Source: Verrucomicrobiales bacterium
GTDB lineage: Bacteria; Verrucomicrobiota; Verrucomicrobiia; Verrucomicrobiales; DEV007
Assembly (NCBI GenBank): GCA_029212615.1
Contig: JARGPJ010000007.1
Location: 70,354-134,353 of the forward strand
DNA: 64,000 bases
Direction: 5' to 3'
Position numbers and translations under genes: made by a program. The notes beneath the pieces are model-generated. The model did not search any database, had not been told where the DNA came from, and saw only the letters and a program-made list of their open reading frames with translations. Within the stretch, counting starts at the first letter, position 1. Each line of letters begins with the position of its first letter. This document shows, in pieces, positions 2,658-26,177 of this stretch.

Positions 2658-2845
2658 GTGTCTGCTAGATGCGTTTTGAGGAGTGTTATCCTCGTAACTG
2701 ATTGATAAGCAGGCATTAAATTTTGTTGCAAATAAACAAAATTAGAATGGACACAAGTCAGGGCTTTTCATTATTCTTCATCAAAATGTCCTCGGTGTCC
2801 CTGCGACACAGGGCACTTTCCCCTCCCCCAAAACCCCCTCAGATC

Positions 2846-8800: not shown

Positions 8801-11800
8801 GTATCGACCGGCGATTTCACTTCGGCCGATCTGGAAAAATCAGGAGTGACTGCGCTCGTGCTGCACGGCGATCCAGGGGCAACCGCGGTGGGCTCGATTG
8901 ACTATGATACCGGTGTGGTTACCTTCGATGCTGATTTTGACATAGATCCAAACTCAGCAGGTGGCGGTACCGATCCGACCTATGCAGCGCGCATTATCGC
9001 AAATTTTGACCATGCGGCTGACAGTGATCACAGTTATGCCCAGTTGGGACATGGTGGATCGGAGTCGGACAATCCGAATGGAGATGTGACTTTGGGACAC
9101 CGCGGAAGTATCAGCGTCGGTTCATTGAATGGTTCGATATCATTCTCCGGAGGGGATGGAACGGCCAGCTACACTCAACTTGGGCATGGTGGGGATTCCA
9201 GCAGGGGTTCCAACGAGGGGGATATAACGGTTCGCGCTGCGCAAAATATCGAGTTCATCGCCGGGAGCGGGATACGGGCTTCGGCGCAATTGGGACATGG
9301 GGGGTATGATGCCGATGCTGACTCGGGAGCGAACGCAGGGCATTCGGGAATTATCAAGGTTTCGGCGGGATCCGGTTCGCTCTTCACTTCTCTGGGAGTG
9401 GGGCAATTCAATGATCTCGGTGATTTCAATTTCGATAGCGTGGCAGATAGTTTCACCTTCGGGGAGACGAATGTGGATTCGGGAGATGTGCTGATTTCAG
9501 GAGGTGATGGAACTGATTCATATGGAATGCTGGGTCATGGGGGACGTGCCGCGGGTGGTGATCATGAAGGAGTGATCGCGGTATCAAGCTTCGGAGATAT
9601 ATCGCTTATCGCAGGGGGCGCTACGAGATCATATGCTCAAGTCGGGCATGGCGGACATGCTTCAGCCGGTGATCTTTCGGGTGATATCCATATCATTGCC
9701 GAAGAAGGCGATATTCTAGTGGATGCAAATGTTGGCAGTGAGGCGTATGCCTTGATCGGTCATGGTGATGACCGGGGTAACAACATCAATAACGCTGCCG
9801 GAAGTCGGGAAGGGGGGATTCAGGTTATTGGCAATACGATCACGCTTGATCGACATGGAAACCGGGCGGCCTGGATTGGTCACAGTTTCAAACGGACCGG
9901 TAACGTGAATAACACTTTTGCGGCAGCGAATGTGGATTTGACTAATGTTTTCCTGGATGGTGGCATTTTGAGTGATGTATATAAAGGCGGTGGATACCAG
10001 GTGATCGCTCTTGATGGATTCGTCGCTACCAACGATGGAGCTGCTGTGTCGAGTGATATTGTGATCACGGACGCATATCGGGACAATTTCATCACGCCAA
10101 ACATCCAGTCGGGGGATTTTGCCCTGAGTGCCGGAAACATCACGGTGGACAGTGATCTGGACAGTACGACAACCTTCGCAACAACGGCGGCTCGAAGTAA
10201 CTATTTCAGTCTCTTTGCGACAGGGAATATCGATGTGAATGAGAGCATTTTGAATCCCGGCACCGGTCACATTAATCTGATTGCAGGGGCTCAATTGGGG
10301 GCGGCGAGTGATTCGGTTCTTCTGGTCGATGCTCCTTCGATCGGTGTCGACGATTACCAGCGAATCAACCACCTCTATTGCCCGCCGACGGGAAGGCTTT
10401 CCTTCAGTGAAGTGAAGGGCGATGGCTTCACTTTTGGCGATTCGACCGGAAGGGTTCAAATCAGTGCTGCGGTGAATGACACCGCAGTCGGTGATTTTCT
10501 TGCCGTCGGTTCCCGCGACGGGGAAACCAATGTCTTTGGTCAGTCAGTGATTGTCACAGGTGGTAATCATACGGGCAACTATGCTCAAATTGGTTTCAAC
10601 AGTATTTCTGCGGAAATTGTCGGGTTTGAGGACACGACGGGAAATGCGACAGGTGATATCATGGTGGAGGCCGGCGCGGGTGGCGTCTCACTTACCGGAG
10701 GTACTATCAATGAGACCTATGCGATGATTGGTCACGGGGGCGATGATATCAATGATACTTCCGGGACCACTGACGATCCGACTCATAGCGGAATGATCTC
10801 GGTACGTGCTGATCGGGTGCTGAGCGGGAATGCCGGCGATATCACGATGACGTCGATTGGCGGAAGTCGATGGACGATGATCGGTCACGGCGGTGATAGT
10901 CTTTCCGGTGATCATTCAGGAGACATTGTGGTGATTGGTCATGATATTACGATGACTGGCGGAAATTTCGGATCACCTTCTCAAATTGGGCATGGTGGAC
11001 TGGGCGTTGAGGGGAACCTGAGTGGAGATATTTACGTTAATTTTGATCCTGACCCTGATCATGATCCGTTGACCGATGATGGCGAAGTTCGCGGTGGAAC
11101 CGGGGAAATTACCCTGAATCGCTCGGGGAATGGTACAGATTCATATCTTCAGATTGGTCATGGTGGACGTCTTTCTAACGGCTCCAAGGACGGCGAAATC
11201 TATATCGGAAAAGCGGCAGGCGTATCGGTTCTGGCCGGCGGAAGACTCGCTTCAAACAGCGCAAGAAGCTATGCTCAGATTGGGCACGGTGGTTCCGGCT
11301 CTTCGGGGGATGTGGGGAGTCTTTCCAATTCAGATATCACGATCAAGGTGGACGGTACCGCCGGCTCGGACAGTGTTGTGGTCAGCGGAGGGCTGGACCA
11401 GTTGAATTACGCGATGATCGGTCATGGCGGGGATTCGGCCACTGCCGGTGGTTCCGGATACTTTGGTGATATCAGCGTGATGGCAGATGCGGGTAATATT
11501 GTGCTGGAAGCAAACTCCGGAGCTGATAATGAGAACACACGTGCTTTTGCGATGGTCGGTCACGGAGGTTATGCCAATGGCGCGCTCAATGGGGACGCGG
11601 ATGGAGATATCACGCTGACGACAGAGGATGGCGGTCTCACGATGACAGGAGGCGCAGACGCCGGCAACAATTTTGCGCAAGTGGGCCACGGAGGATCGAA
11701 TGTCGATGCGACGAATGGTTTTACCGGGAATATCACGGTGTCGACCACTGGTGACATCAGTGCGACAGCGGGAACTGAAGATCTTGACGAAGGGGCCAGT

Positions 11801-14800
11801 GAAAATCGCTACGTCATGATCGGCCACGGCGGATTCGGGAGTAATGGAAGTCATGGAGCCGCTGATGAGGAGATTCGGGTCACTTCTTCTTTGGGGAGTA
11901 TCAATTTTTCAGGGGGCCCGCATTCGAATCATTTCGCTCAGCTAGGTAATGGTGGACGCGGCTCATTGGGAGATCATCAGGGATCGATCTTTGTCAGCGC
12001 AGGAGCAGCCATCAATTTCATTGCCGGGAGCGGAAATGATTCTTATGTGCAGTTGGGGCATGGCGGATATGGCGCTCGCGGAGATCATGGCGGAACTCGC
12101 TTGGTGGAAGGGGTGACGGTCAATCAGGTGATCGACGTTCAGGCGGCGACGGGGATTACTTTTACTGCCGGTCTGGATACCGATACTCTTGAGACAGATG
12201 CAAATGCAGGCAATATGAGAGCCTATGCTCAGCTCGGTCACGGAGGACGCGACGCCGACAATCCGAATCCGGGGAACTATGCCGACAACACTGCAGGTAC
12301 CGCAGGTTTCCCGACGGTGGCACAGCGGGTGGGGAATACTGCTGACATTAGTGTCGTGACGACTGGTGGTGACATTTCAGTGCGGAGTGGAACGCAACGG
12401 GAGAGCTACGCGCAGTTCGGACATGGAGGAGCGTATACGGATGGGGACCACACAGGTGACATGGTCGTTCGTGCGGATGAGGGATCGATCACCTTTGACG
12501 CGAAGACCAGCGTATCCACCGATCCGGATGACCCGACTGATCCAGGCAGTGCGACAGGGTCGAACAATCCAAACGCCCGCTACGTCATGATGGGGCACGG
12601 AGGATATTATGCGTCGGGCAGTCATCACGGCGATATCACTGCCACGGCCGGGACTGACGGAAGCATTTCCTTCTCAGGTGGAAACGGAGATGGAAATGCC
12701 TATGCTCAACTGGGGCATGGAGGAAGGAATGACGACCGGAAGGCCTCGAATGAGAACAACTACAATGATCGCTATTATTCGGGCACTTTGTCCGGTGATA
12801 TTACGGTGACCGCCGATGTGAATATTACTTTTGAGGGAGGTAGCGGAGGTAGCACATATGCTCAGATCGGGCATGGAGGGCTTCGCTCCTCTGCTGATGT
12901 CGATGAAGGGCATGAAGGCACCATTGGGGTTACGGCTTTGAATGGATCGGTTTCCCTGATCGGGGGAACCGGTAGCAATGCCTTTGCCATTGCCGGTCAC
13001 GGAGGATTTCAGTCGATGGGAAATCACGGGATGTTCGATGCGGACGGTTCCGGAATGATTGAGAATGCGATCACGGTTACGGGAGAGACAGGGGTAATCG
13101 TTCAGGGCCGCAGTACTTACGCTTTCGCCCAAATTGGGCATGGAGGATTCAGCTCTTCGTTCGATTCAAGTTTTCTTGGTTCTCCAGAACAAGGTGCAAC
13201 AAATTACCACCTCAATATACCGGTTGCGACGCCGCTCGGTACAGCCGGGAATGTGACGGTGACGTCGAATAGCGGAGGATTGATTCTCGGAGGAGCGTCT
13301 ACGGGGACGGATGGCTATAGTCAGATCGGAAATGGAGGTAGGGCAACCTTCGGTTCGCACACCGGAAATATCACCGTTGATGTTAAGAATAGCATCGATA
13401 TCGAAGCAGGTAGTGGTAGTCGAACCTACGCGATGATCGGAAACGGAGGAAATTCTACGACTGGGACAAACTCAGTAAATGATGGAACGATCACCGTGAA
13501 AAGTTCTGCCGGCTCGCTGTCGCTCGATGGGGGAAGCAGTGGTTCCGCCGGAGCCCAGATTGGGCACGGCGGAGTGAATACGAGATCTGCCACCGGGCTT
13601 ACGACAGATAGTGCGAGGATAGAAGTCAGTATTGCCGGCGCGATCGATCTAACGGCCGGGAGCGGTAACAATGCTTTTGCGCAAATCGGACATGGCGGCA
13701 CGAATTCTAACAGGGATCACCTGGGTAATATTTGTGTCCATGCCGGGAGCACGATCACTCTGGATGCTTATGATAAAGAGGAAACGTCGGGCACGAACTC
13801 ATATGTTCAGATCGGAAACGGGGGATTCAATGCGTGGGCAGACCACAGCGGAAATATCACTGTCGTTTCCGGAACCTCTGCGGCAGGCGGGATTTCTCTT
13901 CTTGGTGGCGGGGACAAAGGGCGCTCAGCGCAGATTGGGCATGGGGGCGCAAACGCCGCAGCTCGTATCGTTAATCTTGCCGGCGAAATCGTGGTCGTTT
14001 CAGACAACGGAGGGGGACTTACGATGAAGGGCGGAAATGAGATTGAGAGTTTCTCTATGGTGGGTCATGGCGATGGTTACGGCACCTATGGAGATCCTGA
14101 CAGTGGAAACACCGGAGGAACCCGTCAGGGAGGTATTCAGTACTATATCGATGATGCCTATTCCTTCACGGCGGGGGGGACGGACAGCAATGTTTATCTA
14201 CATCACCGGACAAACACGGATGGAGGGTTAAACCTGGACAGCCCGAGCCCGACTTATCTTGGCGGTAGTGGATATCAATTCCTCGTGAATGATATCGGAA
14301 ACAGTGTTGATTCGACAAGTGGCGGGGCCTTTGAAGGAAACAACGTGATGATCGGTGGGAACGTTGGCCTTGGCGATGTGGTCGTGACGTTCGATGGTGA
14401 TCTCACGGTGGATGTTCCAGATTCCTTTGTTTTTGACAGTGTGGACCACGATTTCAACTTCGTGGTGCTTGCGACGGGTAATCTGAATTTTAATCGGAAT
14501 TATCAGAATGCCGGCACCGGAGATGTTGCTCTCGTGGCCGGTTGGAGTGGTGTTCAGGCTCCTTCGAGCGTTACTTATGTGGAAGTTGACGGGGAACTCA
14601 GTTTCTGTGATCCGATTCTCTCAGCCGGAGCTGCAGATTATGACGATAAGACCTCATGGGGAAATATTGCCGGTGGTGATCATGCCGGGGCGGGCGCTTC
14701 CGGAGGTAGGCTGACGATAGGGGATGCTGCGAATACCGGTTCGGTCGTCGTTGGAACACAAGGTGGATCGACTATTCTACGCGGCTATGAGATTGAGATT

Positions 14801-17800
14801 CTCGGTGGTGCAAGTGCCGACGCATTCACTCAGGTTGGTTTTATTACAAGTGTAGGGAGCGTTGCCGGTGCCGATCCTGCCCTGGCGGGATATAGGCCTT
14901 CGATAGACATTCAAGCCCGCGAGGGAGGCCTCACTTTGCAGGGGGGAGAAGGAGCTGGAGCTTATGCGCAGATCGGTCACGGTGGTGCAGACTCCACCGC
15001 TACGCAGATTGGCGATACTTTCGGTGCTGATATCGTGATTTCGTTTTGCGAGCCGGGTGATCTCATCCTCGGTTCGCTTACTGCCGGAGGCTATGCCCAG
15101 ATTGGCCACGGAGGTAGTGGTGCTTCGTTTACCGGGATCGATGGCGATATCACGATTGGCGGGGCCCGGGAAGTGGATCTTCAGGGAGGAGATACTGCCG
15201 GTGCCTATGTGCAAATTGGGCACGGGGGAGACAACACCGGTGTCGCGACTGTAGGTGCAAAAGAAGGTCTCATCCAGATCTCCGAATCGACCAGTATCAC
15301 CGTGGAAGGGGGATCGACTTCCGATACTTTTGCTCAGATTGGGCATGGTGGTAACGAGAACCTCGGAGATAGCAGTGGCAATATTGAACTTACCACGACC
15401 GGTAAACTTGAGATTATGTCAGGATCCGGAACTGATTCATACGCTCAGGTGGGGCACGGAGGGCGCCTCGCTGACGGAGATCACGGAGTGGCCGGTGATA
15501 AGATTGACGTAAAGGCCGCTTCGCTGAATGTGCAGGCGGTGGGAACCACTGCGCATGCTCAGCTCGGTCATGGTGGATATCAGACAGAGGGGAATTACAC
15601 GGCCGACATTCTGGTGAACTTTAACTCGACTCCGGCGGCCCCGGGAGCGCTTGAGGTCACGGCGAGTGACGGTTCGAACGCTTACGCTCAAATCGGACAT
15701 GGTGGTGCCATTAATGTGACGGGAAATGACAATACTAAAGGCGGCGATATTGATGTCAGTGGTTTCAGTAGTGTGGCTCTGACGGGGGGGAGTGGATTTG
15801 ACGCCTTTGCTCAAATTGGACACGGTGGTGACGGGAATGATGGCGATATCACGGGTGACGTCCGCGTCGATACGACAGGGGCAGTGACCCTTCAGGGGGA
15901 TGCGGCGGCAGTAGATGATCGTGGAGATGGCTATGTTCAGATTGGACACGGTGGTCACGAAGTGGATGGCATCATCGGTGCAGCTGATGGATCGAACGAG
16001 ACAGTGGTGATCGCTGATGGCGGTGTCTCACTGGCGGGTGGAGGACGCCCCCGGGCCTATGCTCAAATCGGATTCGGTGGCAATGGTAGCGACGCAAGCA
16101 CGATCATTACCGGCGGAACCTATGTTAATTTTGATCCTGCTACGATGTCTGAGGACGGCGGTGGGGCAATCAGCCTGACAGGAGGAGCCGGTGAATCGGC
16201 TTCGGCGATGATCGGCATGGGAGGCGTTGACTCTGCTGCGGCTCTTGAAGGGGATGTGACCGTCTATGGGGCAAGTCTCGGTCTCACGGCAACGACTTCT
16301 GCTGGTGCAGAGAGCTCAAGTGCTCAAATCGGTCATCGTGGCGATGGCGTTGAAGGAGAGATTCTGGTTGAGGTGGACGGAAATGCCACGATATCGGCAG
16401 CCTCCGGAATCAGGGGCTTTGCTACGGTCGGTCACGGCGATGCCAATAATTCTGATGGAGTGACGGAGGGAAATATTCACCTTGGAGTGGGTGGAAACCT
16501 GCAGCTCAATTCCGGTGACGGTTCCGGTGGAAATTTCGCTACGGTTGGGCATGCACGGAATTCCGAAGGAAGCATCGGCGGAGATATTTTCGCTCATGTG
16601 GACGGCAGTGCTATCTTGAATGCAGCGGCGGCGAACTCTTCCAGTTCGAACAGTCAGATCGGCCACTTCGGCTTCAGTGGCGAGGTCGACTCGACAGGAG
16701 TTGTCACGCTGCTGGCGACTGATGGTGTTGTATTGACGGCTTCAGCAGGAAGCATGGGTGCCGCACAAGTAGGGCACAGCAGTCTCGGCGGGGGAGATTT
16801 CTCCGGAAGTGTCTCTGTGGTTTCAGAAGGCAATATTGCTCTGACGGGAGGATCTGATGCTTCCAGCGTTGCCGCAATCGGGCACGGATTAGCCTCAGTT
16901 TCCGGAACGCACACGGGGGGTGTCAATGTCTACACTACCGGTTCGATCACGATGAGTGATGGCGCCAGCGGCGGAGCCCTGATATCGCACCAGACGTCCG
17001 AGGGTGTTGCTGAGGTTGACTATCTCGCTTCTGAGGGAGGTGATAGCGGTTACTCTATCGTTGCCCTTGGCGGCCTTGATCTGGCGGATACCCTCGATCA
17101 GCAGACCGGAGACAGCGGCGTCATTACTTTGACGGAGACCATCGCCAAAGCGCTCGTTGCCGATGATGTCACGATTGCGTCGGGTGGCACAGCAAACAAT
17201 CTTGTGATCGGTGATGGAACGCAGTCGGTCACCTACGATTCAGACAATAACCTTGCGATTCTCTCGGGAGGCGATTTGACGATTAACTCAGGGATTCAAA
17301 ACACCGGGGAGGGAGCGATCGGCCTGCTCGCCGGGTGGAGCAACAGTGGAAGCACGGCGGCGTTGGCTCCGCTCATGGCAGGACTGCATGACAAGGCGGT
17401 TCCTGTTCTGGGTGATCTGGCGCTTCCCGATTTTTCCTCGATCAGTATCAACGGTCCGGTCGCGGCGACGGAATTTGGTGACGACAGTGCGATTGTCCGC
17501 ATTGGTGACGGGACTCAGACAACCGGTATCAGTGTAGGTTCAAGAAATGGCGTCACTGAGATTCTGGGTGACGGAATTGAGGTGACCGGAAGCATGGCTG
17601 ATGATGCCTATGCGCAGCTTGGATACTTCAGTCCGGACGCAACGACGGACACTTCGACAATCGATGGCGATCTGAACCTTTCATCCGGCGCCGGCGGCAT
17701 CACGGTGGAAGGAGGGCGTGGGGAGAATACCTTTGCTCAAGTCGGTCACGGGGGCATCCTCGAAGGGCCTGAAATTGACGCTGATATCGATGTGCGGCTC

Positions 17801-19486
17801 ACTGCGGCGGGTGCAATCAGTGTTTCAGGCGGGGGTGATGAATTTGCCTATGCTCAGCTTGGACACGGCGGATCTGGTTATGTGGGTGACCTTGGTGGTT
17901 CGATCATCACCGATGGAAATGTCACGACTGCCACCGTCGAAGGAGGGACTTCAACCGGTGCTTACGCTCAGTTGGGTCATGGCGGGGCCGAATCGGAAGG
18001 CGCGAAGACAGGCGTGATCACTCTGGAAGCTGAATCTATTCTCGTGGATGGTGGTTCACTTGGGCTTGCCAGTGCTCAGATCGGTCATGGCGGTAATGCG
18101 TCGAGCGGCACGCTTGAGGGAGCGCTTACAGTGACCTCAACGGTGGGCGATGTGACAGTGTCCGGAGGAGATTTTTCCGGGGCAAATGCTCAGATCGGAC
18201 ATGGCGGGTTGGAGTTCAGTGGTGCGGTAACTTCACAGCCTCTCACCATTACTTCAGCCAATGACGTTCTTGTTTCAGGTGGAACGACAACGAGTGGAAT
18301 GATTGGGCATGGCGGGACCCTGGCTTCAGGCGGGCCGATTCGCAGTGATATCACGGTCACGGCGGCAGGGGACGTGACCCTGAACGATGGAAGCGGCGCC
18401 CTCGCCTTTGCCCAGATCGGAAATGGAGGTGCTGTTGCCGGCGGTACGCAGGGCGGGGATATTTCAGTCACTGGAGTTAATGTTAATCTGACGTCCACGG
18501 GGACCATTGCGGGGACTTACACGAAGATTGGCCATGGAGATTATTACCGTGGGGCCCTGGCGAGCTTCGGTGGTACAGGAGCCCGTGAGGGGGATATTGA
18601 AGTGAGTGCAACAGGAGATGTCATCCTCTCGAAATCCCTGATCGGTCATGGAAGCGCAAACAGTCAGGCGTTGATTGACCCTGCGAGCAGCACTCAGATC
18701 AAAGCGGGTGATGACCTTATCGCCAATGCAGATTCCCAGTTGAACGGGGGATCGGAGTTTCGAGCCTATCTCAATGAGCGTAAGGACAACAAGGTGGCAT
18801 CCGGTGTCGTCATTAATGGCGATGCTACGTGGACAGGTGCTGAGACGGACCCCTCTCCTCAAGTCGACAGTGAATTCACTCGCTCCATCACCGGTGAGAA
18901 TCCAAGTTCACCTTTGGAGCACACGGGGGCGTTTGACAGTGGGCCGGAACCGACCAACCCTGCTGGATTTGCCTTCTATTACGACACAATTGCCATCGGC
19001 GTTGCCGATGGAACGGATCCCGATCCCGGTCCAGGAGGCGGTCCGGATCCTGTGCCAGGAGGTGGCGGTACCGGAGGAGATCCTCTTGGCGAGGTGGCTA
19101 ATACTGCAAATCAAGGAAGTACTTCATTCTGGAGCGATGTTATTGCAGCAATAGGTGGGAGTGATGAGTTGTCTCCTGAAGATCGACTTATCCGGGAGAA
19201 TCAGAAAGCGCAGGAGGAATACATCACACGATTCAACAACTTCATCATCGAGTACCGGGGGTTTGATCAATATTCTCCTTCAGGTGAAAGCATCTATTCC
19301 TACATTTTATCAAGCGGCAGACTGCTTGAGGCCGGAGCAGAGGCAGATGCGGATGAAGAAGATGCCCTTCGTCGACTGCGCCGCACGATGCAGCAAATTC
19401 AGGCGTCTGAGGAAGCTCAGGAAGAGAATGCCGCTCAGGAGCAAGCGAGTGAAGAGATGGGAGATGTTCCTCTCGCGGTGCGTTAG
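2846..19486 (+). CDS. Giant TpsA/filamentous-haemagglutinin-like exoprotein (~5,550 aa) with AQIGHGG repeats
   Basis: Uninterrupted ORF. The track starts at TTG 2723. ATG 2846 is preferred because it gives a basic-then-hydrophobic signal peptide ending [10 protein letters not shown]. TPS domain motifs: 'IINWDDFSI', 'VLNRVTG', '[11 protein letters not shown]'. Later come 'GGFAEISG' and '[10 protein letters not shown]'. The body is a Gly/Asp/Ser/Thr-rich beta-repeat. Confidence 0.9.
   Translation: [5546 protein letters not shown]
2972..3360 (+). other. Haemagglutination-activity/TPS secretion domain of the giant protein (approximate limits)
   Basis: [10 protein letters not shown]...QINQNS...IINWDDFSI...[34 protein letters not shown] matches the canonical TpsA N-terminal domain pattern. 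Confidence 0.88.
5135..18655 (+). repeat. Coding repeat array: ~75 copies of [FY]-[AV]-[QM]-[ILV]-G-H-G-G separated by 'G.I.V' / 'I...AG/GG' beta-strand spacers
   Basis: Hand count from the translation: about 76 motifs, about 68 with His. The rest read GNGG, GFGG or GMGG. Codons differ between copies, so this is an old protein-level repeat, not a DNA tandem repeat. Confidence 0.9.
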
Positions 19487-20058
19487 TCAAAATTGGATCG
19501 TCGCTCTACCGCGATGAGATAGGGCGGCGAATTCCGTTGATTAATGGTCTGATAAAGGATCACGGTAAAGATCGATTGATCCAGTTCAGTTGCCCACGCT
19601 TCTACTTGTTTTGCTTCTCTCTCTCCTTCCGGGTGTCCGGGGTAAAGAACAACAGTAATAATTCCGCCAGCTTCGAGGAGTGCGATCACCGAATTCAGCG
19701 CTGCGACAGTCGTTTCCCCACCGGTCGTGATCTGCTTATCGCCGGCAGGGAGATAGCCGAGGTTAAATGTCGCGGCCTTTACGGGAGAGTGGATGATCTC
19801 CGGGATATTTTCGTGACCGGTATGATGGAGTGCCACCTGTTGCATGCCGTTGGTTCGTTCCCGGGTATTCCGAATCGCAGCCTCTTGAATATCGAAACAC
19901 GAGACGAGACCATTTCCTCCCACGGTTTGAGCAAGAAAGAGCGAGTCGTGCCCGTTGCCGGCGGTGGCATCGATGACCGAGTCTCCGGGCTGCACCCGCT
20001 CACGAATGAGGGAGTGAGCCATTTGAATCGCTCTCTTGAGTTGAGGAGGTTTTCCCAT
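19483..20058 (-). CDS. Class I SAM-dependent methyltransferase, YtqB/MnmM-like (putative tRNA mnm5s2U34 methyltransferase)
   Basis: Motifs 'IDATAGNGHDSLFLA', 'FDIQEAAI', 'GHEN', 'FNLGYLPAGDKQITT' and 'VLYPGHPEG' are characteristic of the YtqB/'putative rRNA methylase' family. Confidence 0.8.
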   Translation of the reverse strand: MGKPPQLKRAIQMAHSLIRERVQPGDSVIDATAGNGHDSLFLAQTVGGNGLVSCFDIQEAAIRNTRERTNGMQQVALHHTGHENIPEIIHSPVKAATFNLGYLPAGDKQITTGGETTVAALNSVIALLEAGGIITVVLYPGHPEGEREAKQVEAWATELDQSIFTVILYQTINQRNSPPYLIAVERRSNFD

Positions 20059-20061
20059 GCC

Positions 20062-21132
20062 TTAGACTAGATTGCTTTGAATGTCGGATTCAGGAGGCAG
20101 GGGGATTCCGTCTTCCAGTAACTGAGTGAAACGTTCGGCGTACCATGGACCGTTGACGACTCCCTTGGATCCCAGTCCATTGAAAAAAGCGACGGAGTCA
20201 TGTGCGGGGTGAATTCCGGCGAAAATCTGGCTGCGATGGATGATGGGACGAACTGCGCAACGGTGATCGATCACTTCGAAGGGAAGCGGAGTGATTGATC
20301 TGAGCTTTTCGATAATCTCTTCGCGTCCTGCGTGGTCCGGATCGAGAGAAGCCAGTTGGTGCCTGTAGTTCGATCCCGTCCGAAAGCGGTCCCCTCCGAC
20401 CGGCAGGAGCCAGGCTCCCTTATTGATGATCAGCTCGAGACCGTCGAGCCCCGGAATTCTGACGTCCAGTATGTCACCCAGTGCAGAGTGCATCCGGATC
20501 CAGTCGAAGAACTGGTTTTCGTGGTTTCGCCAGCCTTCAGCAAAGATGATTTGTTTCGCGTTAATATTCTTCCATTGGACCCCGGTGGAGTGGGGATGAA
20601 CCTCTGCTGAGTTGACTTTGCCAATCGCATAGGACGCTCGTTCAAGGAGGTGCTGTCGGGTTGTCTCGAGAAATGCCGGGACATCAAGCCACCCGCCCCC
20701 TTTCATCTCAAAGCCGCCGTTTTCCGCATGAAGGAGACTGGGATCCAGGTCGAGTGGACCCCGGTAGGGATGATCCGAGCTTTCTTCACTGCGATCAATC
20801 GCTTCCCAGTTGTCCTTCTCTTTCACATTGCGAAGGAGCTTCGCGATACGCTGCTCGTGAAAGAACGGAGTCCCCGTGGCCAGCTCCAGGTCGCGGTAGA
20901 ACTGGCGCGCGAAATTGAGGCGTTCTTCGAAGGCTGGTGAAATTGAAAATTTCGAACCCGTGATCGGGGTTACGAGGCCGGCTGCGATTTTGGAGGAGGT
21001 AACCGTCTCGTCGCGATCAACGACGAGGATTCGTTTATTCCGGCGGAGTAGCTGCCATGCCAGGAGCGAACCGGCAAGGCCTTGCCCAACGATGAGATAG
21101 TCAACTTTCACGTTCAGAAGAGTGGCAGACAA
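20062..21132 (-). CDS. FAD-dependent oxidoreductase (DAO/glycine oxidase/MnmC C-terminal-like family)
   Basis: Rossmann 'DYLIVGQGLAG', 'SSKIAAGLVTPITG', C-terminal 'AVRP' and 'FNGLGSKG'. TTG start. Its stop is 3 nt before the methyltransferase ATG. Confidence 0.85.
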   Translation of the reverse strand: MSATLLNVKVDYLIVGQGLAGSLLAWQLLRRNKRILVVDRDETVTSSKIAAGLVTPITGSKFSISPAFEERLNFARQFYRDLELATGTPFFHEQRIAKLLRNVKEKDNWEAIDRSEESSDHPYRGPLDLDPSLLHAENGGFEMKGGGWLDVPAFLETTRQHLLERASYAIGKVNSAEVHPHSTGVQWKNINAKQIIFAEGWRNHENQFFDWIRMHSALGDILDVRIPGLDGLELIINKGAWLLPVGGDRFRTGSNYRHQLASLDPDHAGREEIIEKLRSITPLPFEVIDHRCAVRPIIHRSQIFAGIHPAHDSVAFFNGLGSKGVVNGPWYAERFTQLLEDGIPLPPESDIQSNLV

Positions 21133-21190
21133 TCTGTTCTATTTTTAACAAAATGCGAGTGATTGCCGAACCGCAGGGAGATATACAGGC

Positions 21191-21236
21191 ATAAAAATTG
21201 ATATTTCAGAAAATATGATAGTTAATTTTTATAAAA
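21191..21236. promoter_or_regulatory. AT-rich divergent promoter region with nested inverted repeats
   Basis: ATAAAAATT (21191-21199) pairs with AATTTTTAT (21224-21232). Inner ATATTT/AAATAT pair. Palindromic TTTTATAAAA. Lies between divergent genes. Confidence 0.4.
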
Positions 21237-21305
21237 TAATGATTGTCATGGTTCCCTAATGAAGTCAGAATGCAATTGAATCGAATTGTCATATCGAATC
21301 AAATT

Positions 21306-22892
21306 ATGAAAACACCAGTTTTTTCCGCGATTTTTACAATTGGAACATTGATGCTTGCTCTGATCGCGACCAGCTGTAGTGATCCGCAGAAGCAGGCCCG
21401 CAAAGCCCTTGAGGAGAAAGGCTATGGCACTTCCGTAAATGATCTCATCATGGCGGCGGGCGCCGGGGACACGGAGAGTCTCGACTTGTTTGTCCAAACC
21501 GGAATGGACATTGACAGTAAGGACCGGGTGGGGAACACGGCGTTGATTAAGGCTGCCGGTGGCGGTCACGCCCGGGCGGTAGAGCGCATTCTTGGAATGG
21601 GGGCGGACCCGCGTCACCGAAATAGCGTGGGACGGGATGCTCTCATGACATCTTCTGCGAAAGGCTTTGAGCAGGTATCCCGTATGTTGCTGAGTCGAGG
21701 GGGAGATATCACGATCAAAGATTCCGAGGGGTGGAGCTCTCTTTCTATCGCGGCCTTTAATGGTCATGCTGACGTCGTCTCATTGCTTTCCAGTCAGGCA
21801 TCTCCCACAGCGCTTGATGACGCCCTGCTCGTCGCCAGTTTTAACGGGGATGAAGAGGTCATTAGTCGACTCCTCGGGGCCGGAGCAAATATTAATGCCC
21901 GGAGTCCTGCCAGCATGACCCCGCTAATGATCGCGGCCGAAGGGGGAAAAGCAGGGGCTGTTCGGACACTGTTGCAGAATCAGGCAAATCCATATTCTGA
22001 GACGAATGAAGGTCAGACAGCAGCGATGCTTGCGGGAAACAAAGGATTTACAGAGGTTCAGGATTTAATCATGGAACCGGGGCAATGGGGTTCGAGTCCG
22101 GAAAGCGAAGAAGTTCTTCGCGAGATGGCTGAAGCTCAGAAGGCACTTCTTGCCGGCGCGGCTGTCGAGGAGACGTTGGTTGAGGACGCTTTATCTGAGG
22201 ATGATCTCACCCCGGTTGAGTCTCATGATGCTGAGGTCGGGGAGCGAATGAGTGTCGCTGAAAAAGCGAATGCCTCGACCACAAGGGACATGACGCAGTC
22301 TCGCACCTCGCGCGTTCGTGAGGAAGCAAAGTCCAAACCTATTGCCGCTCTCAATGGTTCCACCATTCACTCACGCAGCATTGAAGCCGCGCCGGTGAAG
22401 TCAATGATCCTGGCGGCCTATCATGAAGAGCCGATTCCTCTCTCCGTATCAAAAGTCGATGGAGACACGGCGGAAATTCGCCGGCTGGATCAGAAGAGCG
22501 AGCCGATTGAGGTCGAAGTAGGGACCACGATTCCCGGAACCCCCTTTGAGGTGAAGGAAGTCACTCGCAAGTTCGTCAGTTCGAAAGAGGGAAAAGGACG
22601 CATGGTCGACGTCTCCCGTGTGAAAGTGGAGAACACTCACAGCGGGGCGACTCATCTCCTCGTGAACGATATTTCCGGTCAGTCTGCTGATGCCTATGCC
22701 ATTTTGACCTCTCCTGACAGCAAGTATCGCTATGTCGTGAAGTCCGGGGATGTCTTCCGGACTTCTCAGCCGAACACCGGCACGAAAGATTACCAAGTGC
22801 TCGATATCCGGGCCAGCGGGGTCGTTGTGAAAGACCTCGCGACGGAGGACGTCCTCACAATTGCCCGCGATGGCATTGTTGCACCACGCTAG
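21306..22892 (+). CDS. Ankyrin-repeat lipoprotein with a beta-rich C-terminal domain
   Basis: ATG 21306 gives a lipoprotein signal (LIATS|C). Ankyrin repeats: 'GNTALIKAA', 'GRDALMTSS', 'GWSSLSIAAFNGH', 'MTPLMIAA', 'GQTAAMLA'. An acidic linker precedes a distinct C-terminal domain. The track start is 21243. Confidence 0.82.
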   Translation: MKTPVFSAIFTIGTLMLALIATSCSDPQKQARKALEEKGYGTSVNDLIMAAGAGDTESLDLFVQTGMDIDSKDRVGNTALIKAAGGGHARAVERILGMGADPRHRNSVGRDALMTSSAKGFEQVSRMLLSRGGDITIKDSEGWSSLSIAAFNGHADVVSLLSSQASPTALDDALLVASFNGDEEVISRLLGAGANINARSPASMTPLMIAAEGGKAGAVRTLLQNQANPYSETNEGQTAAMLAGNKGFTEVQDLIMEPGQWGSSPESEEVLREMAEAQKALLAGAAVEETLVEDALSEDDLTPVESHDAEVGERMSVAEKANASTTRDMTQSRTSRVREEAKSKPIAALNGSTIHSRSIEAAPVKSMILAAYHEEPIPLSVSKVDGDTAEIRRLDQKSEPIEVEVGTTIPGTPFEVKEVTRKFVSSKEGKGRMVDVSRVKVENTHSGATHLLVNDISGQSADAYAILTSPDSKYRYVVKSGDVFRTSQPNTGTKDYQVLDIRASGVVVKDLATEDVLTIARDGIVAPR

Positions 22893-22901
22893 GTCGATCG
22901 C

Positions 22902-24206
22902 CTAGACGACGGTGTTGTCGGGAATGGAAATACTTTTCGGGACGACTACGATACCATCGCGAACATAACACCATTCGCAGTCTTCGTTGACGCGGTCTCC
23001 GGGGTGAATGACCACTCCGCTTCCGATGGTTGCGTTTTTATCAATGATCGCCCGGTGAATTCTTGTGTTTTCGCCAATTCGAATCGGGGTCTTCTGCGGC
23101 TTTTCATTGCCGGGGACGATCGTAGTCCTGTTGTAGTAGTCAGATCCCATGATAATGGCTTCACTGATGTCGCAGCCTTTCTCGATGACAGAGCGAACTC
23201 CGATGATCGAATTCCTAATTCGGGCACCGGTGATGATACAGCCATCCGAGAGCAGGGCTTCTTCAATCCTTGCTTCGTTAATCTTGCTCGCAGGGAGAAG
23301 GCGGGCGCGGGTATAGATAGGATTCGCGGGATCAAAAAAGTTAAAAGCCGGAACAATTTTGGTGCACTCGATATTTGCTTCGAAGAATGACTTAATAGTC
23401 CCGATATCCTCCCAGTAGCCACGAAAAATGTAGCTGTAGACGTCTTCATTCTCGATGATGGAGGGGATGATATCTTTGCCGAAATCCTGAAGATCATTGG
23501 CGAGCGCTTTTTCAAGCACTTCGCGATTGAAGAGGTAAATACCCATGGATGCTTGAAATCGCTCGTCGTCGGGTTCCAAACCGACTGACTCAAGAAGTGG
23601 CGCGGGCATGGCGAGTTGGTCCAGGGCAGCATCATCATCGCCCGGCTTTTCAACAAACTGCGTGATGCGACTGTCGTTGTCGCTGTGCATGAGGCCGAAA
23701 GCACGTGCTGGATCCCGTTCTACCGGAGTCGTTGCAATGGTGAGATCGGCTCCTGTCTGGAGGTGGCGTTTCAGCATTTTCCGGAAATCCATCCGGTAGA
23801 GCTGATCGCCGCTGAGAATAAGGAAATGCTTGTATGGCTGTTCGAGGAAGTAGCTCAGGTTCTGGCGGACGGCATCGGCGGTGCCTTGATACCAGTTGTC
23901 GTCGCCCGGAGTCTGTTGCGCGGCGAGGATGTGTACAAAATTATCTCCGAAGTGGTCAAATTTGTAACCGCTTGTGACATGGCGGTTCAGTGACTCGCTG
24001 TTAAACTGAGTCAGGACATACATCTGACGAATGCCTGAGTTGATGCAGTTACTGATTGGGATATCCACGATGCGATACTTACCGGCAAGTGGAACGGCGG
24101 GTTTTGAACGACTGTCAGTGAGGGGAAAAAGTCGGCTACCCTGTCCGCCTCCCATGATGATGGCGAGAGTGCTGTGAAGAGATTTTTCGGTGGATATATT
24201 GGACAT
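22902..24206 (-). CDS. glgC: Glucose-1-phosphate adenylyltransferase
   Basis: 'AIIMGGGQGSRLFPLT..RSKPAVPLAGKYRIVDIPISNCINSG', 'WYQGTADAVRQN', 'LILSGDQLYRMD', 'FVEKP', 'ASMGIY', 'YWEDIGT'. Start taken at ATG 24206 (track 24278). Confidence 0.96.
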   Translation of the reverse strand: MSNISTEKSLHSTLAIIMGGGQGSRLFPLTDSRSKPAVPLAGKYRIVDIPISNCINSGIRQMYVLTQFNSESLNRHVTSGYKFDHFGDNFVHILAAQQTPGDDNWYQGTADAVRQNLSYFLEQPYKHFLILSGDQLYRMDFRKMLKRHLQTGADLTIATTPVERDPARAFGLMHSDNDSRITQFVEKPGDDDAALDQLAMPAPLLESVGLEPDDERFQASMGIYLFNREVLEKALANDLQDFGKDIIPSIIENEDVYSYIFRGYWEDIGTIKSFFEANIECTKIVPAFNFFDPANPIYTRARLLPASKINEARIEEALLSDGCIITGARIRNSIIGVRSVIEKGCDISEAIIMGSDYYNRTTIVPGNEKPQKTPIRIGENTRIHRAIIDKNATIGSGVVIHPGDRVNEDCEWCYVRDGIVVVPKSISIPDNTVV

Positions 24207-24323
24207 GGCGACGCCGTAATCTAAAGGAAGATGAAAGAGATGGGCACTGTTTTCGTGACAAATTTTTTGATTGAGCAAGATTTCGAACTTAGGTTTCTTT
24301 GAATTTTAGATTTTATAATAATT

Positions 24324-26177
24324 ATGTGTGGTATCATTGGATACGTAGGCAAAGCTTCTGCCGCTCCCATCCTGATTGAAGGGCTTCGTCGTCTTGAGTA
24401 TCGGGGTTATGACTCTTCGGGCATTGCGATTTTGAATGGTTCCAACACCATTGAGTTGCGTAAGCGAAGCGGGCGCCTTGATAACCTGAAGGACTTGCTC
24501 CTTGAGAATCCTGCGACCGGGAGTTGCGGGATCAGTCATACGCGCTGGGCGACGCACGGCGAACCTTCTGATGAGAACGCTCACCCGCATTCTGATCAGA
24601 GCGGCCGGCTCGCAGTGGTTCACAACGGGGTCATTGAAAACTACAAGATTCTCAAAGATCGACTGACTGAAGAAGGACATGAGTTTGTCTCGCAGACGGA
24701 CTCGGAGGTGCTCGCTCACCTCATCGGGAAATGCTACGATTCCAGCACAGTGAGCGATTCGAAAGACCGCCTTGTCTCCGCCGTCCGGGAGGCACTCCCC
24801 CAGGTCTCAGGGACTTACGGAATTGCTGTGTTGCATGCTGATATTCCCGAATTCCTCGTGGGGGCACGGCTCGGGAGTCCCCTTGTTCTTGGCCTTGGAA
24901 GAGGTGAGAACTTTCTCGCTTCGGATGTTGGTGCGATTGTTACCCACACTAAGGATGCGGTGTATTTGCAGGATCGCGATTTGGTTTGCCTGACTCCGGA
25001 TGATTTTAATATTGAGAAGATTGACGGTGCTGATTCAACGTATGAGGTAAGCACGGTTGACTACACGCCGGAGCAAGCTGAGAAAGGCGAGTATCCTCAT
25101 TTCATGCTCAAAGAAATTTTTGAGCAGCCCACTTCGATCGGGAATGCTTTTCGTGGACGTCTCGTTGATGATCAGGCTTCTGCGATTCTCGGTGGACTGG
25201 GATTGACGCCTCGTGAACTTCGCGACATCGACCGGATCGTTCTTTGCGGCTGCGGGACGGCATCCCATGCCGCGATGGCAGGCGAGTACATCATTGAATC
25301 GCTCGCCCGGATTCCCACTGAAGTTGAGATCGCGAGTGAGTTCAGGTATCGAAATCCGCCCCTCGACAAAAACACGCTTGTGTTCGTGATCAGTCAGAGT
25401 GGTGAAACGATCGATACCCTGGCTGCGATGCGGGAAGGGCAGCGCAAAGGGCATCGTGTTCTCGGGATTGTGAATTCTGTAGGATCAACTATTGCCCGCG
25501 AATCAGACGGGGGAAGCTATCTTCACTCCGGTCCTGAGATCGGGGTCGCGGCAACCAAGTCATTCACTTCACAGGTGACCGTTCTTGCGCTCCTTGGACT
25601 GCTTCTCGGTCGGATGAAGCATCTTTCTGTCGAGTATGGTCAGAATGTTTTGAAAGAACTGCGTGAATTGCCCGCAAAGGTTGAGCAGGTCTTGCTGCAG
25701 AGCGAGCGGATTCGACAGATTGCAATCAAGTATAACGACGTTCCCGCGATGCTGTTTCTCGGGCGTCAGTTTCATTACGCGACGGCGCTGGAAGGTGCTT
25801 TAAAAATGAAGGAGATTTCCTACATCTTTGCGAGTGGCCATGCCGCGGCTGAGCTGAAGCACGGTATTATTGCCCTTGTCAGCGAAGAGGTTCCCAGTGT
25901 TTTTATCATGCCGAAGGACTCGGTTTATGAGAAAAACGTGAGCACGCTTGAGGAAGTGAAGGCACGCAAAGGGCCGACCATCGCAATCACGACGGAAGGC
26001 AATACCGAGTTGGAGGAATTGGCGGACGAAGTGATCTACATCCCGCCGGTAATGGAATGTCTCAGCCCGATTCTAGCAGCGATTCCGCTCCAACTCTTGA
26101 GTTATCACTTTTCCGTTGAGCGTGGCTGTGATGTCGATAAGCCCCGTAATCTAGCCAAGAGTGTAACGGTTGAGTGA
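24324..26177 (+). CDS. glmS: Glutamine--fructose-6-phosphate transaminase (isomerizing)
   Basis: N-terminal 'MCGIIGY', 'LEYRGYDS', 'HTRWATHG', 'SQSGET.DT', C-terminal 'DKPRNLAKSVTVE'. Confidence 0.97.
   Translation: MCGIIGYVGKASAAPILIEGLRRLEYRGYDSSGIAILNGSNTIELRKRSGRLDNLKDLLLENPATGSCGISHTRWATHGEPSDENAHPHSDQSGRLAVVHNGVIENYKILKDRLTEEGHEFVSQTDSEVLAHLIGKCYDSSTVSDSKDRLVSAVREALPQVSGTYGIAVLHADIPEFLVGARLGSPLVLGLGRGENFLASDVGAIVTHTKDAVYLQDRDLVCLTPDDFNIEKIDGADSTYEVSTVDYTPEQAEKGEYPHFMLKEIFEQPTSIGNAFRGRLVDDQASAILGGLGLTPRELRDIDRIVLCGCGTASHAAMAGEYIIESLARIPTEVEIASEFRYRNPPLDKNTLVFVISQSGETIDTLAAMREGQRKGHRVLGIVNSVGSTIARESDGGSYLHSGPEIGVAATKSFTSQVTVLALLGLLLGRMKHLSVEYGQNVLKELRELPAKVEQVLLQSERIRQIAIKYNDVPAMLFLGRQFHYATALEGALKMKEISYIFASGHAAAELKHGIIALVSEEVPSVFIMPKDSVYEKNVSTLEEVKARKGPTIAITTEGNTELEELADEVIYIPPVMECLSPILAAIPLQLLSYHFSVERGCDVDKPRNLAKSVTVE

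What the first reader, a model, noticed from the sequence alone, without database searches (positions are those of the whole stretch)
19483..21132. FAD oxidoreductase + MnmM-like methyltransferase operon: a possible split, non-orthologous MnmC
Seen: the two genes are co-oriented and 3 nt apart. Established: E. coli MnmC fuses an FAD oxidoreductase (cmnm5s2U to nm5s2U) with a SAM methyltransferase (nm5 to mnm5), and Bacillus YtqB/MnmM performs the methylation step with an unrelated enzyme. Inference: this operon pairs a stand-alone MnmC(o)-like oxidase with MnmM to rebuild the pathway in Verrucomicrobia. That would assign a function to a common 'DAO-family' gene.
Basis: partly seen in the sequence, partly recalled or inferred. 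Interest (0 to 1): 0.55.

Follow-up and report, generated by a model that had tools for sequence, protein, structure and literature searches.

The report
Split MnmC1-like oxidase plus MnmM operon
Two adjacent genes in a Verrucomicrobiales genome most likely carry out the last two steps of a common tRNA wobble-base modification (mnm5s2U) with an unusual enzyme pair that was already predicted in print from fused versions of the same proteins but has never been tested.

Summary
Two minus-strand genes lie 3 nt apart. One is a 356-aa (or 349-aa) DAO-family flavoprotein, 20062-21132. The other is a 191-aa MnmM, 19483-20058, which scores 228 bits against a curated cut-off of 135.

The genome has mnmE, mnmG and mnmA. 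No fused mnmC, MnmC2 or MnmL was found. ThiH is present, so a ThiO is not needed for thiamin.

In a 401-genome sample of the phylum, all 68 genomes with MnmM also carry this oxidase. In 32 of them it lies directly upstream on the same strand, and one genome has the two fused. Sixty of the 68 lack MnmL.

In an ML tree the oxidase family is sister to the oxidase domain of fused MnmC (support 91/91) and excludes ThiO. It shares the G-[LF]-G-S-[KR]-G motif with that domain only.

The most likely function is O2/FAD-dependent conversion of cmnm5s2U34 to nm5s2U34, followed by methylation by MnmM.

This is not new as an idea. Jaroch et al. (bioRxiv 2023) listed 27 'MnmC1-YtqB' fusions, several from Verrucomicrobia and Planctomycetes, and predicted this enzyme pair. 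This scan has also noted the same gene pair in other genomes. No experimental test was found. I class it as a new member of a known, predicted kind, of moderate interest.

The parts
20062..21132 (-). Gene for a stand-alone MnmC1-like FAD-dependent oxidoreductase. It is 356 aa from the TTG at 21132, or 349 aa from the GTG at 21111.
   Evidence: ORF, translation. Pfam DAO at 75 bits. The best NCBIfam hit is MnmC_Cterm TIGR03197 at 60 bits, below its cut-off of 174; ThiO scores 52 bits. It is sister to the MnmC1 domains of fused MnmC in ML trees. It shares the GxGxAG and G-L-G-S-K-G signatures with MnmC1. The structure model has pLDDT 90.8 and a DAO / glycine-oxidase / MnmC fold.
20059..20061 (-). 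3-nt spacer between the oxidase stop codon (TAA) and the mnmM start codon (ATG).
   Evidence: Sequence.
19483..20058 (-). mnmM (ytqB family), a SAM-dependent nm5s2U34-to-mnm5s2U34 tRNA methyltransferase of 191 aa.
   Evidence: NCBIfam MnmM equivalog NF053511 at 228 bits, cut-off 135. It scores 169 bits against B. subtilis YtqB/MnmM, PDB 8h0s. Nine of the ten bsMnmM residues I checked from the paper's structure and mutagenesis sections are conserved, and K11 is replaced by His. It is the only MnmM found in the genome.
21133..21242 (.). AT-rich intergenic region upstream of the operon, shared with a divergent ankyrin-repeat gene. A promoter is presumed here but none was recognised on the minus strand.
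   Evidence: Sequence. The consensus scan found only one plus-strand sigma-70-like site, no more than expected by chance.

Best explanation
This is a two-gene operon that finishes mnm5s2U34 synthesis in tRNA. MnmE-MnmG, both encoded elsewhere in the genome, would install cmnm5 on the wobble uridine, and MnmA would add the 2-thio group. The upstream gene product is a stand-alone flavoprotein related to the oxidase domain (MnmC1) of E. coli MnmC. It is proposed to oxidise the N-carboxymethyl (glycine-derived) C-N bond of cmnm5s2U34 using FAD and O2; hydrolysis of the imine then leaves nm5s2U34 and glyoxylate. The downstream product, MnmM, would then methylate nm5s2U34 to mnm5s2U34 using SAM. Shown here: the domain identities, the absence of the alternative enzymes from the assembly, the conserved co-occurrence, adjacency and fusion of the two genes, and the sister relationship to MnmC1. 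Inferred: the substrate, the O2 dependence and the order of the reactions.
For: 1. MnmM identity is secure. It passes the NCBIfam equivalog at 228 against 135 bits. It scores 169 bits against B. subtilis MnmM, and residues D34, N101, Y104, K110, Y141, H144, Q163, Q176 and N178 are conserved.

2. There is a gap in the pathway. The genome has mnmE (356 bits), mnmG (785 bits) and mnmA (363 bits). No MnmC2 was found, no MnmL over its cut-off and no MnmC1 over its cut-off. The best MnmC1 hit in the whole genome is this gene itself.

3. The phyletic pattern in 401 genomes of the phylum is strong. All 68 genomes with MnmM have this oxidase. In 32 it is within 1 kb, on the same strand and always upstream. 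In one 28-species genus the two genes are unlinked, yet 15 genomes have both and 12 have neither. Sixty of the 68 have no MnmL. MnmM and MnmC2 exclude each other in all but one genome. One family in another class (6 of 6 genomes) pairs the same oxidase with a stand-alone MnmC2.

4. Fusions exist, always in the order oxidase then MnmM. Examples are G005 at 542 aa, P0003 at 653 aa and 5 of the top 150 representatives. The top metagenomic representative also has mnmM overlapping its 3' end.

5. Ancestry points to MnmC1. The family is monophyletic (99/99) and sister to the MnmC1 domains of fused MnmC: SH-aLRT 95 in the quick tree, UFBoot 91 and SH-aLRT 91 in the careful tree. ThiO and other DAO proteins fall outside. 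Ala in GxGxAG and the G-S-[KR] of G-[LF]-G-S-[KR]-G are shared only with MnmC1; ThiO has Y-R-N/H at that position.

6. ThiO is not needed, because ThiH is present over its cut-off.

7. The same pair was predicted in print from fusions.
Against: There is no biochemical or genetic test of any member of this stand-alone family.

Sequence and fold scores do not separate it from glycine oxidase. The family profile scores 102 bits against glycine oxidase 7cyx and 96 bits against MnmC 3pvc, and Foldseek ranks glycine oxidase, iminodiacetate oxidase and MnmC together.

The protein scores 60 bits against the MnmC1 equivalog-domain model, whose cut-off is 174. It also lacks the roughly 26-residue insert that the three MnmC1 domains compared here carry.

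The sister relationship rests on only 3 MnmC1 and 2 ThiO sequences, on long branches, and has 91% support.

Fourteen genomes of one family have weaker homologues without MnmM, and only 5 of those have an MnmC2 fusion, so the family boundary is not sharp.

MnmM could in principle work on nm5s2U made directly by the ammonium route of MnmEG. The genome is 93.8% complete, so a missing gene is not proven absent.
Confidence: 0.8

Rival explanations
1. The flavoprotein is a ThiO-type glycine oxidase, or another oxidase of free amino acids, and its position next to mnmM has no functional meaning.
For: The family profile scores slightly higher against glycine oxidase (7cyx, 102 bits) than against MnmC (96 bits). 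The top Foldseek hits are glycine oxidases. Some databases name its homologues 'glycine oxidase'. Family members reach 110-125 bits on the ThiO model.
Against: It scores 52 bits against a ThiO cut-off of 251, and the genome has ThiH over its cut-off. In the trees ThiO falls outside the clade formed by this family and MnmC1. The ThiO motif H/L-Y-R-N/H-G is replaced by L-G-S-K-G, as in MnmC1. The gene co-occurs with MnmM in 68 of 68 genomes, always in the same order, and is repeatedly fused to it. That pattern is not expected for a thiamin or amino-acid enzyme.
Confidence: 0.05
2. The oxidase and MnmM do work together on tRNA, but the oxidase acts on a different substrate or position than cmnm5s2U34, or yields a product other than nm5s2U.
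For: The family is a separate clade from MnmC1. It scores below the equivalog cut-off and lacks the MnmC1 insert. No substrate has been measured. Structural neighbours include oxidases of other N-carboxymethyl amines, namely IdaA and CmiS2.
Against: MnmM's known substrate is nm5s2U34 (PMC9976899), and its substrate-contacting residues are conserved here. The only known source of nm5 other than the ammonium route is removal of the carboxymethyl group from cmnm5. The same oxidase also pairs with MnmC2, the other nm5-specific methylase, in another class.
Confidence: 0.08
3. MnmEG in this organism uses only the ammonium route and makes nm5s2U directly, so only MnmM is needed. The linked oxidase would then have a regulatory, salvage or unrelated role.
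For: Jaroch et al. propose an MnmM-only ammonium route for Chlamydia trachomatis, which has MnmM but neither MnmC1 nor MnmL. Aquifex uses MnmC2 alone.
Against: In the phylum sample no genome has MnmM without the oxidase (0 of 68). The two genes are fused in several lineages. The 2026 YhcC preprint argues that direct in vivo evidence for nm5s2U production by MnmEG is lacking in E. coli.
Confidence: 0.05

Closest known systems
'MnmC1-YtqB' (MnmC1/MnmM) fusion proteins listed by Jaroch et al., bioRxiv 10.1101/2023.12.21.572861, Data S4A. There are 27 entries, from taxa including Fuerstiella, Planctomycetaceae, Opitutaceae, Pelagicoccus and Verrucomicrobiaceae.
   Same: They have the same two domains in the same order, oxidase then MnmM, and come from the same phyla. 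Fusions found here (G005 at 542 aa, P0003, P0129 and others) fall inside the same oxidase family as the window protein. They carry the same predicted function, cmnm5s2U to mnm5s2U.
   Different: Here the two domains are separate genes 3 nt apart. The stand-alone form was not counted as MnmC1 in that paper's tables, where for example Akkermansia and Opitutus are scored 0. Neither form has been tested experimentally.
E. coli / Yersinia MnmC, a bifunctional protein with MnmC2 methyltransferase at the N-terminus and MnmC1 FAD oxidase at the C-terminus (PDB 3PS9, 3AWI, 3PVC).
   Same: The oxidase is the sister clade of MnmC1 and shares the GxGxAG and G-[LF]-G-S-[KR]-G signatures and the Arg of the G-V-R-P motif. 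The predicted overall chemistry and pathway position are the same.
   Different: The methyltransferase is MnmM (PF06962), which is unrelated to MnmC2 (PF05430). The domain or gene order is reversed. The oxidase scores below the TIGR03197 cut-off (60 against 174 bits) and lacks the roughly 26-residue MnmC1 insert.
B. subtilis MnmL (YtqA, radical SAM) plus MnmM (YtqB).
   Same: The methyltransferase is the same, MnmM. The operon logic is the same: the enzyme that removes the carboxymethyl group is encoded next to mnmM.
   Different: That step is done here by an O2-dependent flavoprotein and not by a radical-SAM enzyme. No MnmL was found in this genome or in 60 of the 68 MnmM genomes sampled.
ThiO glycine oxidase (B. 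subtilis, PDB 1NG3/1RYI).
   Same: It has the same fold and a similar active-site architecture, and it oxidises a glycine C-N bond (PMC3648344).
   Different: The window protein scores far below the ThiO cut-off, has a different motif at the H-Y-R-N-G position, falls outside ThiO in the tree and is not in a thiamin gene context. The genome uses ThiH.

Membership tests
MnmM (NCBIfam NF053511, Pfam PF06962) - downstream gene | Scores over the curated equivalog cut-off along the full length of the model. | tested here: met
   228.3 bits against a cut-off of 135, covering model positions 2-183 of 183. It is the only such gene in the genome.
MnmM (NCBIfam NF053511, Pfam PF06962) - downstream gene | Conserves the residues that contact or position U33, U34 and U35 and the SAM/catalytic residues named in the bsMnmM study: K11, D34, N101, Y104, K110, Y141, H144, Q163, Q176, N178. 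| tested here: met
   In the alignment to 8h0s, read against the residues named in PMC9976899, nine of the ten are identical. K11 is His15 in the window protein.
MnmM (NCBIfam NF053511, Pfam PF06962) - downstream gene | Methylates nm5s2U34 in tRNA. | not testable with these tools
   This needs an enzyme assay or complementation.
MnmC1 / MnmC(o) oxidase domain (NCBIfam TIGR03197 MnmC_Cterm) - upstream gene | Scores over the curated equivalog-domain cut-off. | tested here: not met
   60.4 bits against a cut-off of 174.2. The match covers model positions 3-284 of 400. It is nevertheless the best hit in the genome.
MnmC1 / MnmC(o) oxidase domain (NCBIfam TIGR03197 MnmC_Cterm) - upstream gene | Groups with bona fide MnmC1 domains and excludes ThiO and other DAO families. 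| tested here: met
   It forms a sister clade to 3 MnmC1 domains. Support is SH-aLRT 95 in the quick tree and UFBoot 91 / SH-aLRT 91 in the careful tree. The sample of outgroups is small.
MnmC1 / MnmC(o) oxidase domain (NCBIfam TIGR03197 MnmC_Cterm) - upstream gene | Carries the sequence signatures that set MnmC1 apart from glycine oxidase in my alignment: Ala in GxGxAG, and G-[LF]-G-S-[KR]-G. | tested here: met
   A20 and G321-S322-K323 are conserved in 26-27 of 27 family members and in all 3 MnmC1 domains. ThiO has I/V and Y-R-N/H at these positions. These signatures come from my own alignment and are not a published definition.
MnmC1 / MnmC(o) oxidase domain (NCBIfam TIGR03197 MnmC_Cterm) - upstream gene | Is genetically linked to an nm5-specific methyltransferase. 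| tested here: met
   It is adjacent or fused to MnmM, and co-occurs with MnmM in 68 of 68 genomes. In one family of another class it co-occurs with a stand-alone MnmC2.
MnmC1 / MnmC(o) oxidase domain (NCBIfam TIGR03197 MnmC_Cterm) - upstream gene | Converts cmnm5s2U-tRNA to nm5s2U-tRNA in an FAD-dependent reaction. | not testable with these tools
   This needs LC-MS of tRNA nucleosides after complementation or an in vitro reaction.
DAO superfamily (Pfam PF01266) - upstream gene | Gives a full-length match over the gathering score and has the FAD-binding GxGxxG motif. | tested here: met
   75.2 bits against 27.9, covering profile positions 1-353 of 353. G16, G18 and G21 are invariant in the family. 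The model has a DAO fold with pLDDT 90.8.
ThiO glycine oxidase (NCBIfam TIGR02352) - upstream gene | Scores over the curated cut-off, sits in a thiamin gene context, and is needed because ThiH is absent. | tested here: not met
   52.5 bits against a cut-off of 250.8. ThiH is present at 382-411 bits on another contig. The flanking genes are an ankyrin-repeat gene, glgC, glmS and a TPS-domain giant gene, with no thi genes.

The most novel reading that the evidence does not exclude
The stand-alone oxidase defines a large family that current annotation does not recognise as MnmC1-type. About 3,300 clusters at 50% identity score E <= 1e-30 against its profile. Public sources name the window protein's relatives only 'FAD-dependent oxidoreductase' or 'glycine oxidase'. 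On this reading the family is the missing aerobic enzyme that removes the carboxymethyl group from cmnm5 in most MnmM-bearing bacteria outside the Firmicutes. That would fill part of the '59% with neither MnmC nor MnmL' gap reported in recent surveys. Lineages that also keep MnmL (8 of 68 here) would switch between an O2-dependent and an anaerobic route, as E. coli is proposed to do. Species within one genus that have lost both genes would end the pathway at cmnm5s2U.
Probability: 0.6. Interest if true: 0.5.

Novelty: new member of a known kind. Interest (0 to 1): 0.38.

Why it matters
mnm5s2U34 tunes the decoding of Lys, Glu and Gln codons. The enzymes for its last steps are a well-known case of non-orthologous replacement. 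Recent surveys still leave most bacteria without an assigned cmnm5-to-nm5 enzyme: 59% have neither MnmC nor MnmL, according to bioRxiv 10.64898/2026.05.18.725915. A confirmed function for this stand-alone oxidase would turn thousands of generic 'FAD-dependent oxidoreductase' or 'glycine oxidase' annotations into a specific tRNA-modification function. It would also add an oxygen-dependent partner for MnmM and allow the wobble-modification end-point (cmnm5 or mnm5) to be predicted from the genome in Verrucomicrobiota and other phyla. The concept itself is already published as a prediction, so the remaining value lies in annotation and in experimental confirmation.

Tried and rejected
- Single-sequence search of the oxidase against the PDB gave only marginal N-terminal hits. 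A family profile was needed.
- Foldseek of a confident model did not separate MnmC from glycine oxidase, iminodiacetate oxidase or CmiS2. Fold alone cannot assign the substrate.
- The search for related loci with the family alignment failed, because no stretch was conserved enough. Organism names outside the phylum were therefore not obtained.
- The 'longer' search of the search for homologous proteins covers only proteins of 624 aa or more and so returned just one fusion. The 540-590 aa fusions were found by other routes.
- Complex prediction on the oxidase and MnmM, each with a family alignment, returned 'no answer' with score 0.00. This is evidence neither for nor against binding, and I make no claim that the two proteins form a complex.
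- The promoter and terminator scan of the operon region found nothing above the number expected by chance.
- Literature searches found no measurement of xm5s2U nucleosides in Verrucomicrobia or Planctomycetes and no experimental test of a stand-alone MnmC1 with MnmM.
- I considered the reading 'ThiO for thiamin synthesis' and rejected it.

Full report
**What is there**

The window carries two minus-strand ORFs at exactly the stated coordinates: 20062-21132 (356 aa from a TTG) and 19483-20058 (191 aa from an ATG). On the coding strand the junction reads TAA-ggc-ATG, a 3-nt spacer. The called gene for this oxidase and nearly all its close homologues are 349 aa, which matches a start at the GTG at 21111.

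The operon holds just these two genes. Its 3' end overlaps by 4 nt the stop of a convergent 5,587-aa ORF that has an N-terminal TPS secretion domain. Its 5' side faces a divergent ankyrin-repeat gene across a 110-nt AT-rich spacer. glgC and glmS follow. None of these neighbours relates to tRNA modification or to thiamin.

**The two proteins**

The downstream protein is MnmM.
- It scores 228 bits on the NCBIfam equivalog NF053511 (cut-off 135) and 159 bits on PF06962.
- It scores 169 bits against B. subtilis YtqB/MnmM, PDB 8h0s.
- I checked ten bsMnmM residues named in that protein's structure and mutagenesis study (PMC9976899). D34, N101, Y104, K110, Y141, H144, Q163, Q176 and N178 are identical. 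K11 is His.

The upstream protein is a full-length DAO-family flavoprotein (PF01266, 75 bits).
- Its best NCBIfam hits are the MnmC oxidase domain (TIGR03197, 60 bits, cut-off 174) and ThiO (52 bits, cut-off 251).
- A family-alignment AlphaFold model is confident (pLDDT 90.8).
- Foldseek places it among glycine oxidases, iminodiacetate oxidase, CmiS2 and MnmC at near-equal scores.
- A family profile scores 102 bits on glycine oxidase 7cyx and 93-96 bits on the MnmC structures.

So scores and fold put it in the clade of oxidases that act on glycine or N-carboxymethyl amines, but they do not choose between ThiO and MnmC1. MnmC1 is known to be a structural homologue of ThiO that does not oxidise free glycine or sarcosine (PMC3648344).

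**Pathway context in the same genome**

The assembly is 93.8% complete.
- Present over their cut-offs: mnmE, mnmG and mnmA.
- Not found: any MnmC2/DUF752 domain, any MnmL/YhcC over its cut-off (best 33 bits), and any MnmC1 over its cut-off. The best MnmC1 hit in the genome is this gene itself.
- MnmM is single-copy.
- ThiH is present over its cut-off, and no other ThiO-like gene exists. Thiazole synthesis therefore does not need a glycine oxidase.

The step from cmnm5 to nm5 is thus an open gap, and the oxidase is the only candidate found to fill it.

**Conservation**

I searched the same 401-genome sample of the phylum with the oxidase, with MnmM, with MnmC2 and with MnmL, and compared coordinates by script.
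- MnmM occurs in 68 genomes. All 68 also carry the oxidase at E <= 1e-10.
- In 32 genomes from 8 families the two matches lie within 1 kb on the same strand, with the oxidase always upstream.
- In one genome they share a single 542-aa ORF that carries both DAO and PF06962.
- In a 28-species genus the genes are unlinked, yet 15 genomes have both, one has the oxidase alone and 12 have neither.
- Only 8 of the 68 MnmM genomes have MnmL.
- MnmM and MnmC2 exclude each other except in one genome.
- In a family from another class, 6 of 6 genomes combine this oxidase with a stand-alone MnmC2 and a stand-alone MnmL.

Other lineages of the phylum use solutions that are already known: classic MnmC2-MnmC1 fusions, MnmL-MnmC2 fusions and TGT-MnmC2 fusions. 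These genomes are related to one another, so the counts are not independent events. Even so, the pattern recurs across many families.

Outside the sample, a profile search of 1.84 billion representatives found 3,341 clusters at E <= 1e-30. Among the top 150 hits, the five that are 543-591 aa long are all oxidase-MnmM fusions. The top representative's metagenomic contig has mnmM overlapping the oxidase gene's 3' end.

**Ancestry**

I built a tree from 27 family members, the oxidase domains of three fused MnmC proteins (one from this phylum, plus annotated mnmC from Serratia and Leptospira), two ThiO sequences over their cut-off, and seven other DAO proteins.
- The family is monophyletic (99/99).
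- It is sister to MnmC1: SH-aLRT 95 in the quick LG+G4 tree, and UFBoot 91 / SH-aLRT 91 under LG+C20 PMSF.
- ThiO lies outside this clade.

Two signatures are shared only with MnmC1. One is Ala in GxGxAG. The other is the G-S-[KR] of G-[LF]-G-S-[KR]-G, where ThiO has Y-R-N/H (also visible in the HMMER alignments).

The family lacks the roughly 26-residue insert that the three MnmC1 domains carry just before that motif. The outgroup sample is small and the branches are long, so I treat the sister relationship as likely and not as settled.

**Mechanism proposed**

MnmEG makes cmnm5(s2)U34. The stand-alone oxidase uses FAD and O2 to oxidise the glycine-derived C-N bond, and hydrolysis of the imine releases glyoxylate and leaves nm5s2U34. 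MnmM then methylates this with SAM. The substrate, the O2 dependence and the reaction order are inferred by homology to MnmC1 and MnmM and from the genomic evidence. None of them was measured.

**Comparison with what is known**

The idea is already published as a prediction. Jaroch et al. (bioRxiv 10.1101/2023.12.21.572861) list 27 'MnmC1-YtqB' fusions from Fuerstiella, Planctomycetaceae, Opitutaceae, Pelagicoccus, Verrucomicrobiaceae and others. They state that MnmC1/MnmM fusions suggest this enzyme combination and that it awaits validation. Their genome tables do not count the stand-alone form: Verrucomicrobia such as Akkermansia and Opitutus are scored 0.

Cho et al. (PMC9976899) had looked for exactly such an oxidase-plus-methylase operon in Firmicutes and found none. 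A 2026 preprint shows that MnmC1 needs O2 and that YhcC/MnmL takes over in anaerobic E. coli. That makes the 8 genomes here with both the oxidase and MnmL worth noting. I found no experimental test of a stand-alone MnmC1 working with MnmM.

Notes from this scan record the same gene pair in at least eight other genomes, including gammaproteobacteria. One earlier follow-up reached the same verdict. I used these notes as leads only.

**Verdict**

The oxidase is homologous to MnmC1 and is not a non-orthologous replacement for it. The concept is not new. I class this as a new, unfused member of a known predicted kind. My confidence in the proposed function is about 0.8 and the interest is moderate (0.38).

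Noticed in passing
window 2723-19486 (+): A giant 5,587-aa ORF has an N-terminal TPS (two-partner secretion) domain (PF05860, 105 bits). No Pfam match was found in its last 1,499 residues. Its stop overlaps the stop of mnmM by 4 nt in convergent orientation. It is probably a filamentous-haemagglutinin-like exoprotein.
   Followed up: partly
window 21243-22892 (+), 22902-24278 (-), 24324-26177 (+): The flanking genes are an ankyrin-repeat protein of 549 aa (uncommon in bacteria), a GlgC-like glucose-1-phosphate adenylyltransferase, and GlmS.
   Followed up: partly
Phylum sample, genus g2: In one 28-species genus with 2-3 Mb genomes, 15 species have both the oxidase and MnmM, unlinked, and 12 have neither. 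Species of the same genus may therefore differ in their wobble-modification end-point (mnm5s2U or cmnm5s2U).
   Followed up: partly
G054, G057, G069, G096, G246, G294, G309, G363: Eight genomes carry the oxidase, MnmM and an unlinked MnmL. This could be an aerobic/anaerobic dual system like the one proposed for E. coli. The MnmL matches in G057 and G069 contain in-frame stops.
   Followed up: no
L045:2155-4905 (-) (G044) and L046:2631-4484 (-) (G281): In a family from another class the oxidase homologue lies in unusually long ORFs. One is 916 aa and also carries AAA-ATPase_like and PD-(D/E)XK domains. The other is 617 aa with an unexplained extension of about 276 aa at the N-terminus. These may be read-through, mis-called starts or real fusions.
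   Followed up: no
L029:1228-2427 (-) (G297): One family member has an insert of about 45 residues at the same alignment position as the roughly 26-residue insert of bona fide MnmC1 domains, just before the G-L-G-S-K-G motif.
   Followed up: no
L049:2213-4303 (-), L048:7-1707 (+), L050:3-1709 (+), L047:673-2577 (+): The same phylum also holds TGT-MnmC2 fusions (696 aa), MnmL-MnmC2 fusions (about 567 aa) and a classic MnmC2-MnmC1 fusion (634 aa). The TGT-MnmC2 and MnmL-MnmC2 fusion types are described by Jaroch et al.
   Followed up: partly
Phylum sample, family f7: Fourteen genomes have weaker homologues of the oxidase (E 1e-11 to 1e-35) and no MnmM. Only 5 of them have a TGT-MnmC2 fusion. These may be a paralogous DAO subfamily with another function.
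   Followed up: no
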